64,000 bases of DNA. It comes from Candidatus Latescibacterota bacterium. Its GTDB lineage: Bacteria; Latescibacterota; UBA2968; UBA8231. The stretch spans positions 864,001 through 928,000 of the forward strand of contig CBDAOB010000003.1 of NCBI GenBank assembly GCA_965197905.1, written 5' to 3'. Shown in pieces: positions 51,066 to 56,522 of the stretch (the first letter of the stretch is position 1; each line of letters starts with the position of its first letter). The notes below the pieces were generated by a model. The model was not told where the DNA came from. It made no database searches and saw only the letters and a list, made by a program, of their open reading frames with translations. The translations under genes and the position numbers were made by a program.

Positions 51066-52085
51066 TCAGTCTTTCGATGTCAACCGGACCACATCGCCAG
51101 TTCGCTGATATTCCAGATCCGTCAATGCCGAGCTCAGCTCCAGAACACCCTCCAGGGACTCAGCGTCGATATGCAACGTAAGCTGCTCCGCAGCAATAGC
51201 GGTATCCTCAGTAATAAATCGCACATCGTACCAGCGTTCTAGTTGATGCAGGATCTCACTCAAGGGAACGCTGTCAAAGAACGCTTCCCGATGCAGCCAG
51301 CCCAGATGTTTCGCTATCTCCACAGCACGCGGTTTTGCTGGCAAACCGTCCTTCGGACACACGCTCATCTCTCCCTTCCCGATCCCCACATCCTGCCTTC
51401 TGTCCCCATCAGCACCGAATGAGACTTTTCCTTCCGCAACCGCGACGGTGACCCTCTGTTCCCCCTGCCACGCTCTCACATTGAACCGAGTTCCCAGAAC
51501 CCGGATTCTCGCGTCATCGGCGCGTACGACAAACGGCTGGTTCGTACGGGACGCCACCTCGAAATACCCCTCGCCGGAAAGCCGCACCGCGCGCTCTTCT
51601 CCTTCGAACGTTGCGGGATACTCTAGAACGCTTCCGGAATCCAATCGAATCCGGGTGCCGTCGCTGAGAGCGAGTTGGCGATGAGCACCGCTCTCCACCA
51701 CCATCTCTTCCCATTCGATCCGTTTCTCGAACGGGAAAACTCCTGCTTCCCGCGCCCCGTAAAACGCCACCGAGGTGGCGATGAGCAAGACAGCGGCTGC
51801 CGCATACCGACGGACAGGATGAAACCAATCGACGAAACGGCCGGCACGGCGGGTTTTTACGGCCGGCACGGTTATTCCCGTCTTCTCGGCGATGTCGTGC
51901 CACATTCCGTTCAGATCAGAGGTGACAGGCTGTGGTTCCGACGTATTCCACACGGTGCTCATGATCGCCATAAGCCGCCGATTTTCCGGGTCGGCAGCGA
52001 TCAGCTCTTCCACTGCTGCCTTTTCTTCCATCGAGCATTCACCCGATAGATAACGTGCGAACAACGCGTCGGATGTCTCGCTCAT
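51066..52085 (-). CDS. fecR: FecR family anti-sigma factor
   Basis: Single TM, LSDGTRI.L, GEGYFEV, VLGTRFNV, LERWYDV. Confidence 0.92.
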   Translation of the reverse strand: MSETSDALFARYLSGECSMEEKAAVEELIAADPENRRLMAIMSTVWNTSEPQPVTSDLNGMWHDIAEKTGITVPAVKTRRAGRFVDWFHPVRRYAAAAVLLIATSVAFYGAREAGVFPFEKRIEWEEMVVESGAHRQLALSDGTRIRLDSGSVLEYPATFEGEERAVRLSGEGYFEVASRTNQPFVVRADDARIRVLGTRFNVRAWQGEQRVTVAVAEGKVSFGADGDRRQDVGIGKGEMSVCPKDGLPAKPRAVEIAKHLGWLHREAFFDSVPLSEILHQLERWYDVRFITEDTAIAAEQLTLHIDAESLEGVLELSSALTDLEYQRTGDVVRLTSKD

Positions 52086-52185
52086 GTCTCCTCCATAGTC
52101 CCAGCCTGCCAACCTGTCAGAAACTCACCGAAAGCTTTGCGCCCAGACTTCCGTTCTCTGGATTGAGAGTGGGACTCATGCTCAT

Positions 52186-52791
52186 CTAACCGGCAGACTT
52201 TCCGTATTTGAATCTCACCGCGTCCCGCTTTCGCTCAATCGTCTTGATGCCGTCAATCCAGTCGTGAAGGATCTGACCTACCAGCAAACCTGCTCCGAGA
52301 ACGACGAATGGCCCGCCCCCACCCCCATCGGTTTTTCGCTCCAGTTTCCTCAGCTTGTAGGTCAAAACACCGCCCTCGTCCTCGATCGGTATCTTCTCGT
52401 AACGTCTGACCCTGCCGCGCACTCCGGTCACATCGACGATCTCGAAGTTGGTTTTCTCCCATCTGTTCTCCTTCTTGTCCCTCATGGATGCGCCAAGGAC
52501 AACGGATACTCCCCCCAATACGGCGGCGCCCACATGCATCCAGCCTTCTCTCTTCTCACCGGCATAGAAGTGCAACGTCCCGGGGAGTGGGACCGACATC
52601 AAAATCAAGCCGACACCCAACCGGCGGTTGGCGTCTCTGTACTCCTCCAGGGTCATTTCAGCCGGTACCGGCCATATGGGAACCTCATTAAGCATCTCGT
52701 TGCCACCATGACTCTGTGCCGTTGAATCTTCGACTACGACGATCGATGATGAGAAGAGCAGGACTGCGAAAACTCCGATGATCTCTTTCAC
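52186..52791 (-). CDS. Hypothetical membrane/secreted protein between ECF sigma and FecR
   Basis: GGAGG RBS plus GTG at 52791; signal-like N-terminus, PG..HFYAG motif, TM segments. Confidence 0.65.
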   Translation of the reverse strand: MKEIIGVFAVLLFSSSIVVVEDSTAQSHGGNEMLNEVPIWPVPAEMTLEEYRDANRRLGVGLILMSVPLPGTLHFYAGEKREGWMHVGAAVLGGVSVVLGASMRDKKENRWEKTNFEIVDVTGVRGRVRRYEKIPIEDEGGVLTYKLRKLERKTDGGGGGPFVVLGAGLLVGQILHDWIDGIKTIERKRDAVRFKYGKSAG

Positions 52792-52963
52792 GATAACCTC
52801 CAGGATGGGCTGAAAAACTACGATCTTGGACCGGAATACTCGATAAAACACACCACTGATACCCCTGAGTCAGAAGTTACCCTGACATCGATCACAAAAA
52901 AACTCCACCAATGAATGTGCCTGCGACGACGTGGAGGCGCGAGTCTCAGAAAATGGGAGGCGC

Positions 52964-53515
52964 TCAGAGCAGGTGGGCGAGTCGTTCCCGCAAGAATCTC
53001 AGGGCATGCCCCATCTGTGTTTCCACAGTCTTGATGGAAACGCCCTGAATCTCGGCGATCTCGGTGTAGGTCAAATGATCGAAGCGGTTCATGGAAAAAC
53101 AGATCCGAGTTTTTTCAGGGAGTGCCTCGACGGCCTGGTGAATTGCAGTGGAAATCTCCGTACCCTGCAACTCATCCTCCGGCGTCTTTGGTCCGGGAAA
53201 CTTCGGAGTTTTGTCTTCCAGGCTCCGGCGCACCACGTCTCCATGCCTCAGGTGCTTCAGCGCCCGGTTCTTGGCGGCGGTGTACAGGTAGCTCTTCACG
53301 CTGAGGGTTGGATCGAGCTGGGTCCTGTTCCCCCACACGGAGAGAAACAGATCCTGGACGAGATTCTCCGCAGTTTGAATATCGCGTACATAGCGGCCGA
53401 CGAACTGAATCAGGGGTTGACAATATGAGCGGAAAAGTTGCTCAAACGCCTTCCCGTCGCCGACGCGAATATTCCGGACCCATTCGGCTTCAATATGCTT
53501 TGACACGTTGGGCAC
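52964..53515 (-). CDS. ECF RNA polymerase sigma-70 factor
   Basis: GDGKAFEQLF, AENLVQDLF..W, LPEKTR..F, EIAEIQGVSIKTVETQM. Confidence 0.95.
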   Translation of the reverse strand: MPNVSKHIEAEWVRNIRVGDGKAFEQLFRSYCQPLIQFVGRYVRDIQTAENLVQDLFLSVWGNRTQLDPTLSVKSYLYTAAKNRALKHLRHGDVVRRSLEDKTPKFPGPKTPEDELQGTEISTAIHQAVEALPEKTRICFSMNRFDHLTYTEIAEIQGVSIKTVETQMGHALRFLRERLAHLL

Positions 53516-53826: not shown

Positions 53827-55021
53827 ATGGCTGCATCTAATTCCCCCCAGGGGTCTCGTTCCCTTCCGGAACATCCCGATCTTCACCAACTCAAGAAACA
53901 GGCCAAGGAACTGCTCAAGGGCTATCGCTCTGGTAATTCGGCAGCGGTAGCTGAGGTGGAAACCCACGAGCGGGAGCCGGATCCAGGAAGATTCTCCCTG
54001 AACGATGCGCAGCGGGTGTTGGCCCGGGCATACGGGTTTACCAGCTGGGCGCGGCTAGTTGAGCGCGTAAACGGCTTTAGCGCCGAACGCTTTTGGGTAG
54101 CCGCCCAAGAGGGGGATCTGCAGACCCTGAAGTCGATGGTTGCCAAACGACCTGCGTTGGTCATGATGGCACGGCCCAGCCACGGCAATCCGTTGCATTG
54201 CGCCGTGCTCAACCGGGACGTTGCATGCGCTCGCTTTCTGCTCGAAAACGGAGCCGATCCTCACAAAGGTGTCTATCCGCACCGTGAGTCCACTTCCCCG
54301 CTTGTTCTGGCACAAGAAAGGGAATTCGACGACATCGTAGAGGTCATTGAAACCGAGCTCCAGCAACGGAGGTTACGGGTCGGCGCCACGCGATCAGATA
54401 CGAGAGACGTTGCAGAGGCGATCCGCAAAAACGATGAGGACGCCGTGTACCGGTTACTAGAAGCGGACGCTGAACGCGTGACGGCCGTCGACGAACGGGG
54501 CCGCAAGCCCCTGCATCACACTGCTGCGGCGCGCAATCGGACGCTGACCGCACGCATCTTGCAATTGGACCGCAAACTCTCCGAACCTGACGTCGACGGT
54601 TTGAGCCCGATCGACTGCGCCGTGTTGGCGGCCGACTGGACGCAGAGAGAGGAAACTACGAGGGCGGGCAGATCCGTGGCCGAACTCCTGTTAGAGCACG
54701 GAGCGGATCCTACGCCGCGAAGCGCCGCAGCGACCGGAGACTTGGCGTATTTGCAATCACTGAATCGCACAAACCTGGAGGCATGCGCCATAGACGGTGG
54801 TGGTGGGTTGTTGACACTGGCCGTGAAATACGGCCAACGGGAAGTCTTGAACCATCTGCTGGAATCAGGTCTGGACCCGGATGAGCGCGTGCAACTCGAC
54901 GATGCAGAGGAAGAGATCTACACCTGGGGAATGCCGCTCTGGCACGCCGCTTCCTACTCCGAATACGAGATGGCGGAATCGTTGATCGCTGCCGGCGCTG
55001 ACGTTAACGCGGCAGTTTATG
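53827..55021 (+). CDS. Ankyrin-repeat protein, exon 1 (N-terminal LP..PDL.QLKKQAKELL domain plus ankyrin repeats)
   Basis: GAGGAGG RBS; ankyrin repeats (NPLHCAV..FLLENGADP, PLWHAA..LIAAGADVN); interrupted after the first base of codon 399. Confidence 0.9.
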
Positions 55022-55770
55022 GTGCGCCGTGCTAAGGCGCACATCTTCAGTGGGTGCGAATCCCACCCGGCAAGGGTCGCTCCAGCCGGTAGCAATCGGA
55101 GCAGTGGTGGAGGCGACGAAGCCGCTGAAGCCTCCGGTGTAGAGGGTCGCCTTGGGCGACTTGGCGAGCACACAGGCCGTAACGTGAGTAAACGCTGAGC
55201 AGGCCTCGAAAAGTGTAATGCGGAAGCCGACCTGCCCGTAAACCAGGGAAGGCCGCTGCAGCTGGGGAAGTCGAGCGACAAGCGCACTCAGCTGTTCCGC
55301 CGGGGTAGTGGCGACAGCATGTGTGTAAGAGGAGATGTGGCGCAACACGGGAAGCCTCATCCGGTGGAAGCAGCGAGTGCCTCCAACCGGTAACCCGCGA
55401 GGGCCAGACTGGGCTGGATGAGGTGGCGGACAGGCGCGTAGTACCGAGGAAGCCGGGTAACTCCGGTGGAGGGAAGGGGCCTGACTTCGGACATGCTGCG
55501 GAAGTGCAGAGGGTTGGAGAGTGGCGTGAGCCTATTGCCTCCAGCAGTAAGACTAGTATGCATCGGAAGCAGCTTGACTACCAGGTGAAGTCCTTGTGGC
55601 GTGTGCCTGGATGTGACGTTCGTCGGGAAGCCGGATGCGGGAGATCCGCACGTCCGGTTTGAGGCGGCGGGAACTGGAAACGTAGCGATGGGAGTCGGAC
55701 TGAGGGCTATGGCGAAAGCCATGGGGAACCCACCGAACCCTAAGGCTGGCGCGCCAGTTCTCGACCCTAC
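55022..55770 (+). mobile_element. ORF-less group II intron (749 nt; IIB/bacterial class E-like by inference)
   Basis: 5' GTGCG; domain V GAAGCCGGATGCGGGAGATCCGCACGTCCGGTTT (55627-55660) with AGC triad; domain VI GGGAACTGG...CCAGTTCTC with bulged A at 55764; 3' end CCCTAC; EBS1 CGTAAAC (55237-43) pairs with exon end GTTTATG. Confidence 0.93.
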
Positions 55771-56522
55771 CCAGCGGTTCACCGATGGACCGGGCTTACG
55801 GTGCCGACGATGAGAAGATGAAGGTCTTGTTGCGTCGCCACGGTGCGTTCACTAGCGTCGAAACCATGGGACTGTATCGCGACACCGAAGCGGCACGAGC
55901 AGTCCTGGAAGGAAGGACGACCGCGTACTCTCATCCCGACCCGGTCAGAGACGGTTCTACCGCAGAGAATATGCTATGGGGGGCGGCCTGTGGGGGCGAT
56001 CCCGAGATCGTCGCCATGTGTCTCGCCCGCATCGACCGTGCACCGGACGATTCATGGTGGGCGGTAATCCTCCTGCAACCCATGCGCACGTGGAACCATG
56101 GTTACCACCGACGCCATTCGGGCTTCGACAGGTCTACCTATACGCAATGTCTCGACTTGCTGTTGCAGCACGGCATCAATCCGGACGTTACGGATCAACG
56201 GGGGTTCACTGCGCTGCACGATCTTGCCCACGGCTCTTGTTCAGGTTCCTGGAACATGACGGAAAAGGAGGAACTCGAATTCGGCCGCCTGTTGTTGGAT
56301 GCCGGCGCCAGTTTGGCAGCGCGCGATCCGCTACTAAGGTCAACGCCTCTGGGATGGGCTTGCCGCAACGGTCGAATTCGGCTGGCTGAACTAATGATCG
56401 AACGCGGCGCTGCCGTCAACGAACCGGACGCCGAACCCTGGGCAACGCCACTTGCGTGGGCAACGAAGATGGGTCACGAAGAGATTGTGACGCTGCTTCG
56501 AGGTCGCGGGGCGAAGGCGTGA
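55771..56522 (+). CDS. Ankyrin-repeat protein, exon 2 (spliced product 648 aa)
   Basis: G(55021)+CC joins in frame to give VNAAVY-ASGSP-MDRAY; further repeats TALHDLA, TPLGWAC, TPLAWA..GH. Confidence 0.88.

What the first reader, a model, noticed from the sequence alone, without database searches (positions are those of the whole stretch)
55009..55247. Exon-binding sites match this exact insertion site (EBS1/IBS1 and EBS2/IBS2)
Seen: the loop of hairpin CCTG-CCCGTAAAC-CAGG (55231-55247) contains CGTAAAC, which pairs over 7 bp (one G-U) with the last 7 exon nucleotides GTTTATG (55015-55021). GCCGT (55176-55180) can pair with GCGGC (55009-55013). Inference: the intron retrohomed here or co-adapted and is still splicing-competent. 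Related ankyrin paralogs with similar codons could be further homing targets.
Basis: partly seen in the sequence, partly recalled or inferred. Interest (0 to 1): 0.7.

Follow-up and report, generated by a model that had tools for sequence, protein, structure and literature searches.

The report
Gene-less intron favouring integron attC sites
A mobile intron that has lost its own enzyme gene splits an ankyrin gene here; one of the two guide sequences proposed for it is right and the other lies elsewhere, and its near-identical copies mostly sit in the joints of gene-cassette arrays, so this gene looks like a side target.

Summary
The motifs lie in a 749-nt ORF-less group II intron (55022-55770; class F by its relatives) inside an ankyrin gene. 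EBS1 is right: a blind covariation scan over 94 sites returns 55237-55243 for exon positions -1 to -7, and also EBS3 (G55308 with C55771). The proposed EBS2 is wrong: GCCGT is family consensus and does not covary (z 0.2). The real EBS2 is GTGT 55213-55216, pairing with ACGC 55007-55010 behind a conserved TA (z 8.5-11; only z 1.7 in a small held-out set). The match is not special to this site. The genome holds 13 copies (at least 99.6% identical, same EBS) and one RT-encoding partner. Seven of 12 independent sites are integron attC sites or halves, cut on the top strand just after the L'' box; 4 are sense-strand genes. A same-genus genome has this gene intact. No ankyrin paralog carries a comparable target. 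Splicing was not shown. This scan earlier noted top-strand attC homing on other DNA, at the R' box by another lineage. A class F intron at L'' was not found in my literature searches.

The parts
53827..55021 (+). 5' exon of an ankyrin-repeat gene
   Evidence: ORF from 53827; Pfam Ank_2 74 bits; 84% DNA identity to the uninterrupted G098 gene
55005..55006 (+). TA dinucleotide just 5' of IBS2; conserved across the lineage, no RNA partner found, probably read by the RT (inferred)
   Evidence: TA with its A at -14 to -17 in 63 of 94 sites against 9 in a control window of the same width further upstream
55007..55010 (+). IBS2 (ACGC), pairs with EBS2 GUGU, one G-U
55015..55021 (+). IBS1 (GTTTATG), one G-U at -2
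55022..55770 (+). ORF-less group II intron, 749 nt, GTGCG...AC ends, IIB-like, class F (g2-g5) by relatives
   Evidence: RF02003 106.8 bits; RF00029 39.2 bits, just under its cut-off of 40; ends fixed by 12 full copies and by the empty G098 allele; class labels
55076..55082 (+). alpha (GTCGCTC)
   Evidence: C55078 covaries with G55277; 55077-55081 finds a 5/5 partner in the alpha' region in 90 of 94 (no shuffle control)
55176..55180 (+).
55213..55216 (+). EBS2 (GTGT), variable 4-mer after the conserved GAAA
   Evidence: 32 distinct motifs in 94 sites, z 11.2 and 8.5; a TA-anchored blind scan returns 55216, 55215, 55214, 55213 for TA+1 to TA+4; held-out z 1.7
55237..55243 (+). EBS1 (CGTAAAC) in the loop of hairpin 55231-55247
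55273..55279 (+). alpha' (GAGCGAC) at the end of the stem-loop that follows the EBS1 hairpin (IIE/IIF feature)
   Evidence: feature described in PMC3753933
55308..55308 (+). EBS3 (G)
   Evidence: best column for exon +1, MI 1.36, 90% Watson-Crick against 32% expected; G-C 34, T-A 22, A-T 8, C-G 4 of 75
55628..55660 (+). Domain 5, AGC triad, 5-nt loop GAGAT
55663..55768 (+). Long domain 6 (about 110 nt) with a bulged A at 55764, the likely branch point
   Evidence: fold z -3.6; the same length in most relatives
55771..56522 (+). 3' exon of the ankyrin gene; C55771 is IBS3
   Evidence: in frame with the 5' exon once the intron is removed, 648 aa, same length as the G098 orthologue

Best explanation
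A non-autonomous class F (IIB-like) group II intron, recently amplified to 13 copies. SHOWN by sequence comparison: boundaries; EBS1 55237-55243, EBS2 55213-55216, EBS3 55308; the target rule TA-ACAC-(3-4 nt)-GTTTACG|C; 7 of 12 independent sites are attC sites or halves. INFERRED: the intron splices from host transcripts, binds in trans the En-minus RT of the sister intron at G000:C3:1187174-1189158 (same EBS2, EBS1 and EBS3), reverse-splices into any DNA that fits the rule, preferably the lagging-strand template, and is copied by the RT. The 5' arm of one attC subfamily of this genome (R'' TAAC, spacer, L'' GTTYRCG) fits the rule, so cassette arrays are its main reservoir of targets; EBS1 reads like the attC L' box. 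The ankyrin gene was hit because its Val-Asn-Ala-Ala-Val-Tyr codons spell the same motif; the sense-strand insertion would be tolerated if splicing restores the frame.
For: Covariation. 13 copies at 99.6-100% with precise ends. RT partner: 441 aa, YADD, TIGR04416 323 bits over the cut-off of 300, Pfam RVT_1 and GIIM only; first 237 nt identical to the ORF-less intron but for one base. attC census: 58 attC-like hits in the intron-free genome; the 4 occupied by this intron score 10-11 of 12, the other 54 score at most 9.5. Integron integrase TIGR02249 366.7 bits at C3:204281 and a remnant beside the C2 array. Same attC position in L039 and G107. Empty orthologue lacks both TA and IBS2. 4 of 4 gene insertions are on the sense strand. 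14 of 14 copies (13 plus a related intron) lie on the G-rich strand against 58-60% of 3080 long ORFs. Trans-mobilised ORF-less introns are established in Thermosynechococcus (PMC2882425, abstract).
Against: No spliced joint in two RNA runs, and the ankyrin exons were not covered there. Held-out EBS2 test is weak: 3.19 against 2.80, z 1.7, 151 of 3000 shuffles, 7 EBS combinations. 12 of 21 genome sites that meet the rule are empty, including one attC half with perfect IBS1 and IBS3, and 3 occupied sites lack TA, so the rule is neither sufficient nor strict. attC use is not lineage-wide: 1 of 57 non-G000 sites with both flanks matched the attC profile, which was built from this genome and is biased to it. 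Minimum-energy folds of rebuilt attC bottom strands did not give the canonical single hairpin in most cases. The only RT partner has a base change in its EBS1 stem and sits in tandem behind an ORF-less copy; I could not check that arrangement on reads. Class F rests on labels of 47-62% identical relatives; no tree was built. The five C2 copies share one array, so the strand and occupancy counts are not independent.
Confidence: 0.8

Rival explanations
1. attC sites are recognised as structures (extruded hairpin or single strand, as for IIC-attC introns), and EBS pairing is only part of the specificity.
For: Among 21 sites that meet the sequence rule, 7 of 8 attC-type sites are occupied against 2 of 13 others (Fisher p 0.002, sites not independent). 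A second, divergent intron uses the same spot in another attC subfamily.
Against: 5 of 12 sites have no attC at all; within attC, occupancy follows EBS pairing exactly; most relatives do not use attC. Selection against insertions in genes and strand bias can explain the excess: 6 of 12 empty sites lie on the C-rich strand at 25 kb, 0 of 9 occupied.
Confidence: 0.2
2. One reading: EBS2 is GCCGT and the intron has co-adapted to this ankyrin site.
For: 4.5 of 5 pairing at this one site.
Against: No covariation (z 0.2 and -0.8; -0.5 held out); motif is family consensus and paired inside the intron; identical EBS in all 13 copies.
Confidence: 0.02
3. The intron is dead cargo: it no longer splices, the ankyrin gene is a pseudogene, and copies spread by cassette shuffling or recombination.
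For: One truncated copy (C3:360466) shares about 230 bp of 5' flank with C2:7475, so that one moved with its cassette. No spliced product seen. Other interrupted genes show short or shifted frames near the site.
Against: 12 different flanks with precise ends and EBS-matching targets; D5, D6, bulged A and alpha-alpha' intact; both exons keep one open frame of the orthologue's length.
Confidence: 0.1

Closest known systems
Class F (IIF) group II introns, e.g. Pe.th.I2 and Ge.ur.I1-1 (Nagy et al. 2013, PMC3753933: passages and Introduction read, figures not seen); F(g2-g5) of Miura et al. 2022 (PMC8919778: passages and supplement rows)
   Same: alpha' at the end of a stem-loop, 5-nt D5 loop, En-minus RT in the partner; 4 of 4 plasmid relatives that I looked up are labelled F(g2-g5) at matching coordinates
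   Different: No ORF; 13 copies; target set dominated by attC sites. Neither paper's main text has the word attC.
ORF-less introns of Thermosynechococcus elongatus (Mohr et al. 2010, PMC2882425: abstract read)
   Same: Many ORF-less copies served in trans by the RT of a related intron; insertion into repeated non-essential DNA
   Different: Those are IIB1/CL1 introns with diverged target families (PMC8643678, passages); here all copies share one EBS set, class F, and the repeat is attC.
Group IIC-attC introns (S.ma.I2 type; as described in PMC7923331 and PMC4424553, passages)
   Same: Insert into integron attC sites, also found away from them
   Different: They insert in the bottom strand, opposite to the cassettes, at TTGT/T, with 3-4 bp EBS1, no EBS2 and a stem-loop requirement. 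This one inserts in the top strand after L'' with 7-bp EBS1, 4-bp EBS2 and EBS3.
UHB.I2 (IIB1/CL1) and H.ha.F1/F2 (class E fragments) in cassette arrays (Sonbol and Siam 2021, PMC7923331: passages, sections 7 and 12)
   Same: IIB-type introns in cassette arrays, in cassette orientation
   Different: UHB.I2 lies immediately after an attC; H.ha.F1/F2 are 5'-truncated so their target was not defined. Different RT class and position; no EBS-based account of attC choice in what I read.

Membership tests
Group II intron | GUGYG...AY ends, D1 scaffold, D5 with AGC triad, D6 with bulged A | tested here: met
Group II intron | EBS1-IBS1 pairing at the 5' splice site | tested here: met
Group II intron | Splices in vivo or in vitro | tested here: inconclusive
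   No joint 55021-55771 in 2 RNA and 2 other runs (contigs only); exons not covered in the RNA runs
IIB-like ribozyme | EBS3-IBS3 for the 3' exon and an EBS2-IBS2 pairing | tested here: met
   EBS3 55308; EBS2 55213-55216 (weak in held-out)
Class E/F (IIE/IIF) ribozyme | alpha' at the end of a stem-loop in DId3 | tested here: met
   55273-55279; feature from PMC3753933
Class E/F (IIE/IIF) ribozyme | 5-nt loop in D5 | tested here: met
   GAGAT
Class E/F (IIE/IIF) ribozyme | Additional bulge loop in DId3 | not tested
   Reference figure not available to me
Class F (g2-g5) by RT | RT falls in the F(g2-g5) clade | tested here: inconclusive
   4 of 4 looked-up plasmid relatives (47-62% identical, including the best hit) are labelled F(g2-g5); no tree with reference RTs was built; the intron itself has no ORF
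Class F (g2-g5) by RT | No endonuclease domain | tested here: met
   Partner RT 441 aa, Pfam RVT_1 and GIIM only
Group IIC-attC intron | Insertion in the attC bottom strand, opposite to the cassettes, at TTGT/T | tested here: not met
   Top strand, after L'', cassette orientation
Group IIC-attC intron | IIC ribozyme with short EBS1 and no EBS2 | tested here: not met
Integron attC site (for the main targets, not the window site) | R''/R' and L''/L' inverted boxes, repeated behind single ORFs, integrase in the genome | tested here: met
Integron attC site (for the main targets, not the window site) | Bottom strand folds to one hairpin and is recombined by IntI | tested here: inconclusive
   Minimum-energy folds mostly non-canonical; recombination cannot be tested here

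The most novel reading that the evidence does not exclude
A class F group II intron sub-lineage has re-aimed its guides at the R''-L'' arm of the attC top strand (EBS2 on the end of R'', EBS1 a copy of L', the RT reading TA) and spreads through cassette arrays with an ORF-less satellite: a route into attC distinct from IIC-attC introns and from the R'-box IIB introns, reached at the same spot by a second, divergent intron. Insertion splits L'' from L' by 749 bp and should lock the cassette against IntI excision. A bolder extension (about 0.1): because side targets such as this ankyrin site mimic the attC 5' arm, recombination between a gene copy and an attC copy followed by intron loss would create a new cassette with a complete chimeric attC.
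Probability: 0.55. Interest if true: 0.62.

Novelty: new variant of a known kind. Interest (0 to 1): 0.45.

Why it matters
It gives an evidence-based target code for class F introns (TA + 4-nt IBS2 + 3-5 nt + 7-nt IBS1 | IBS3). EBS2 in this class was reported as dispensable for self-splicing and only presumed to serve homing; 32 natural EBS2 variants that covary with their targets now make that directly testable, and would allow retargeting. It also shows an ORF-less bacterial intron amplifying like a non-autonomous element, which reviews call rare, and using integron attC sites by plain base-pairing, with possible effects on cassette mobility. The window's own site is an ordinary side target.

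Tried and rejected
My own first alternative, the linker 55253-55257 after the EBS1 hairpin: no covariation, z -0.8. My first class call, E: dropped. IIC-attC identity for the genome's other 11-copy intron family: rejected, its flanks are a transposase-like reading frame, not attC. Ankyrin paralogs as targets: 5 other loci, best score at most 9 (tblastn found only 6 loci, distant ankyrin genes may be missed). Lineage-wide attC targeting: not seen. An RNA partner for a fifth IBS2 base: none (TA+5, TA+6); a partner for the TA itself cannot be seen by covariation because it hardly varies. Whole-intron energy fold was uninformative (z -1.58). Reads: RNA contigs of two sponge metatranscriptome runs cover 587-612 nt of the intron with one difference and none of the exons; this cannot tell which copy is transcribed and contigs cannot show ends, so I take it as no evidence on splicing; 4 of 24 listed runs were laid. 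D4 remnant shows no RT-like frame by eye. Supplement search of PMC4028801 found nothing; file 4 of the PMC8919778 supplement was not searched. Scripts stopped with errors after printing part of their output; one search was redone.

Full report
What is there. The coordinates fall in a group II intron: RF02003 matches 55048-55187 at 106.8 bits and RF00029 matches from 55626 at 39.2 bits, just under its cut-off. The intron runs from 55022 to 55770 (749 nt) and has no RT frame. Leaving it out joins an ankyrin gene into one 648-aa frame. The same-genus genome G098 has the orthologue uninterrupted, 648 aa, 84-86% identical at DNA level, with the junction exactly there. Domain 5 (55628-55660) has the AGC triad and a 5-nt loop; domain 6 is about 110 nt with a bulged A at 55764.

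Copies. The genome holds 12 full copies and one 3'-truncated copy, 99.6-100% identical. An RT-encoding sister lies at C3:1187174-1189158, directly behind one ORF-less copy. Its RT is 441 aa with YADD and no endonuclease domain. Its first 237 nt equal the ORF-less intron but for one base in the EBS1 stem, then it diverges, which suggests recombination or gene conversion. The window copy and the copy in front of the RT intron are the only two with T at 55288. The closest RT relatives (82-83%) are in a record titled Candidatus Latescibacterota, which hints at the host phylum. Four plasmid relatives (47-62% identical, including the best) are labelled F(g2-g5) in the supplement of Miura et al. 2022 (PMC8919778). 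The alpha' position and 5-nt D5 loop fit the IIE/IIF features listed by Nagy et al. 2013 (PMC3753933).

Testing the EBS claims. From 173 fetched loci a profile gave 138 hits; 101 had a full 5' part and flank. I dropped 15 of a subgroup with another 5' end and 2 rows that repeat G000, added the 12 own sites and removed duplicates, leaving 94 sites in 56 clusters. A blind scan of every D1 column against every exon position returned 55237 to 55243 for -1 to -7 and 55308 for +1. EBS1 pairing was 5.50 of 7 against 2.65 shuffled (z 16.6; z 12.4 with 26 clusters at 85%). A variable 4-mer after GAAA, 55213-55216, gave 3.27 of 4 against 2.33 (z 11.2; 8.5 at 85%). To avoid choosing the register by the EBS itself, I anchored on a TA dinucleotide present once at -14 to -17 in 61 of 94 sites; the best columns for TA+1 to TA+4 were 55216, 55215, 55214, 55213. 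Related sequences inflate all z values. At the window site the pairs are IBS2 ACGC 55007-55010, IBS1 55015-55021 and IBS3 C55771. Nagy et al. found EBS2-IBS2 dispensable for self-splicing of a IIE and a IIF intron and suggested a role in homing.

Where the intron goes. An attC profile built from 12 empty sites of the C2 array found 58 attC-like sites, mostly in three arrays. A full integron integrase lies on C3 and a remnant beside the C2 array. Of 12 independent insertion sites, 5 are complete attC sites (4 in the list of 58, plus a long one at C2:34699), 2 are attC 5' halves (C2:28623, C3:1186425; my reading), 4 are inside genes, all on the sense strand, and 1 is intergenic. The thirteenth copy shares its cassette with C2:7475. 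In attC the cut is on the top strand right after L''. The 4 occupied sites score 10-11 of 12 for EBS pairing and the other 54 at most 9.5. The same position is used in L039 and in G107, but only 1 of 57 non-G000 sites with both flanks matched the profile, so this is a local retargeting, not a lineage trait. Genome-wide, 21 sites meet the rule and 9 are occupied: 7 of 8 attC-type, 2 of 13 others. All 14 copies (with the related intron below) lie on the G-rich strand at 25 and 100 kb, against 1844 and 1792 of 3080 long ORFs; with about nine independent regions this is suggestive only. Miura et al. report a strong lagging-strand bias for F(g2-g5).

The window site. The ankyrin codons give TA-ACGC-GGCA-GTTTATG|C, score 11. 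The G098 allele has a perfect IBS1 but neither TA nor IBS2 and is empty; that genome's intron also has a different EBS1. The five other ankyrin-like loci score at most 9. So the site is a chance mimic of the attC arm, not a product of co-adaptation.

Mechanism. Shown: structure, guides, target rule, copy number, empty allele. Inferred from established group II biology: splicing, RT supplied in trans, reverse splicing into single-stranded DNA at the fork. Not shown: splicing of this copy, RT activity, IntI activity on the sites.

What is known. Trans-mobilised ORF-less introns: PMC2882425 (abstract), PMC8643678 (passages). ORF-less introns rare in bacteria and attC targeting confined to class C: PMC4424553 (passages). 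IIB introns in cassette arrays: PMC7923331 (passages, sections 7 and 12), which also cites a IIC intron in an attC top strand that I did not read. PMC3552965 (passages) and PMC12584367 (abstract) added nothing on attC. Searches found no class F intron homing to attC; the library lacks most subscription papers, including Simon et al. 2008 and Leon and Roy 2009, which I did not read, and supplements of most papers were not seen. Earlier notes of this scan (unchecked) describe IIB introns on the attC top strand in at least 18 genomes, mostly at the R' box and close to UHB.I2; the class and the spot differ here. Gene labels NuoH-like, FlgE-like, FG-GAP and HicAB-like, and the attC box names as applied to these sites, are my recognition of the sequences and come from no call.

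Verdict. EBS1 confirmed, EBS2 relocated, EBS3 added; the site is a side target of an amplifying ORF-less class F intron whose main targets are attC sites. New variant of a known kind; interest 0.45.

Noticed in passing
G000:C3:348603-349429 (-), L240; relative L241 (G041): A second, divergent ORF-less intron (827 nt) with an 85% identical D5-D6 sits at the same spot after L'' in another attC subfamily; its EBS1 loop holds GCACGG for CCGTGC, and the G041 relative has CGCACGG for CCGTGCG, also in a full attC. Five more 5' flanks (L161, L171, L182, L248, L259) show TAAC at attC-like spacing. Possibly an attC-specialist lineage.
   Followed up: partly
L140, L146, L149, L161, L165, L174, L176, L185, L186, L187, L190: A subgroup starting GTGTGT inserts into the 3' strand of domain 5 of other group II introns, forming twintrons.
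   Followed up: no
G000:C3:1186425-1189158: ORF-less intron and RT-encoding intron in direct tandem in one attC half; the RT copy is a chimera sharing the first 237 nt and has a base change in the EBS1 stem.
   Followed up: partly
L213, L217, L226, L229, L232, L233, L235, L238, L239, L214 (G050, G056, G053): Another sub-lineage, with ORF-less copies, has locked onto a host repeat ATCCTGTNNATCCATG followed mostly by TAA or TGA; G050 has 27 RF02003 matches. Retargeting to a repeat family may be a general strategy.
   Followed up: no
G000:C1:64879-65627 (-): A copy interrupts a NuoH-like gene (label recalled) that also shows a frameshift just upstream; assembly error or pseudogene.
   Followed up: no
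G000:C5:2488115 and C4:593542: Copies in a flagellar hook FlgE-like gene and an FG-GAP repeat gene (labels recalled), both sense strand.
   Followed up: no
G000: 11 places, e.g. C2:426-2582: An unrelated RT-encoding group II intron family of about 2157 bp in 11 near-identical copies, mostly in a transposase-like gene, with no G-rich strand bias.
   Followed up: partly
G000:C2:36750-37707 (-): Truncated integron-type integrase next to the C2 cassette array, on the same strand as the cassettes.
   Followed up: no
G000:C3:295146 (-): Empty attC half with perfect IBS1 and IBS3: a predicted next target.
   Followed up: partly
window 51066-53515 (-): ECF sigma factor and FecR anti-sigma pair divergent from the ankyrin gene, followed by a long receptor-like ORF; ordinary.
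   Followed up: no
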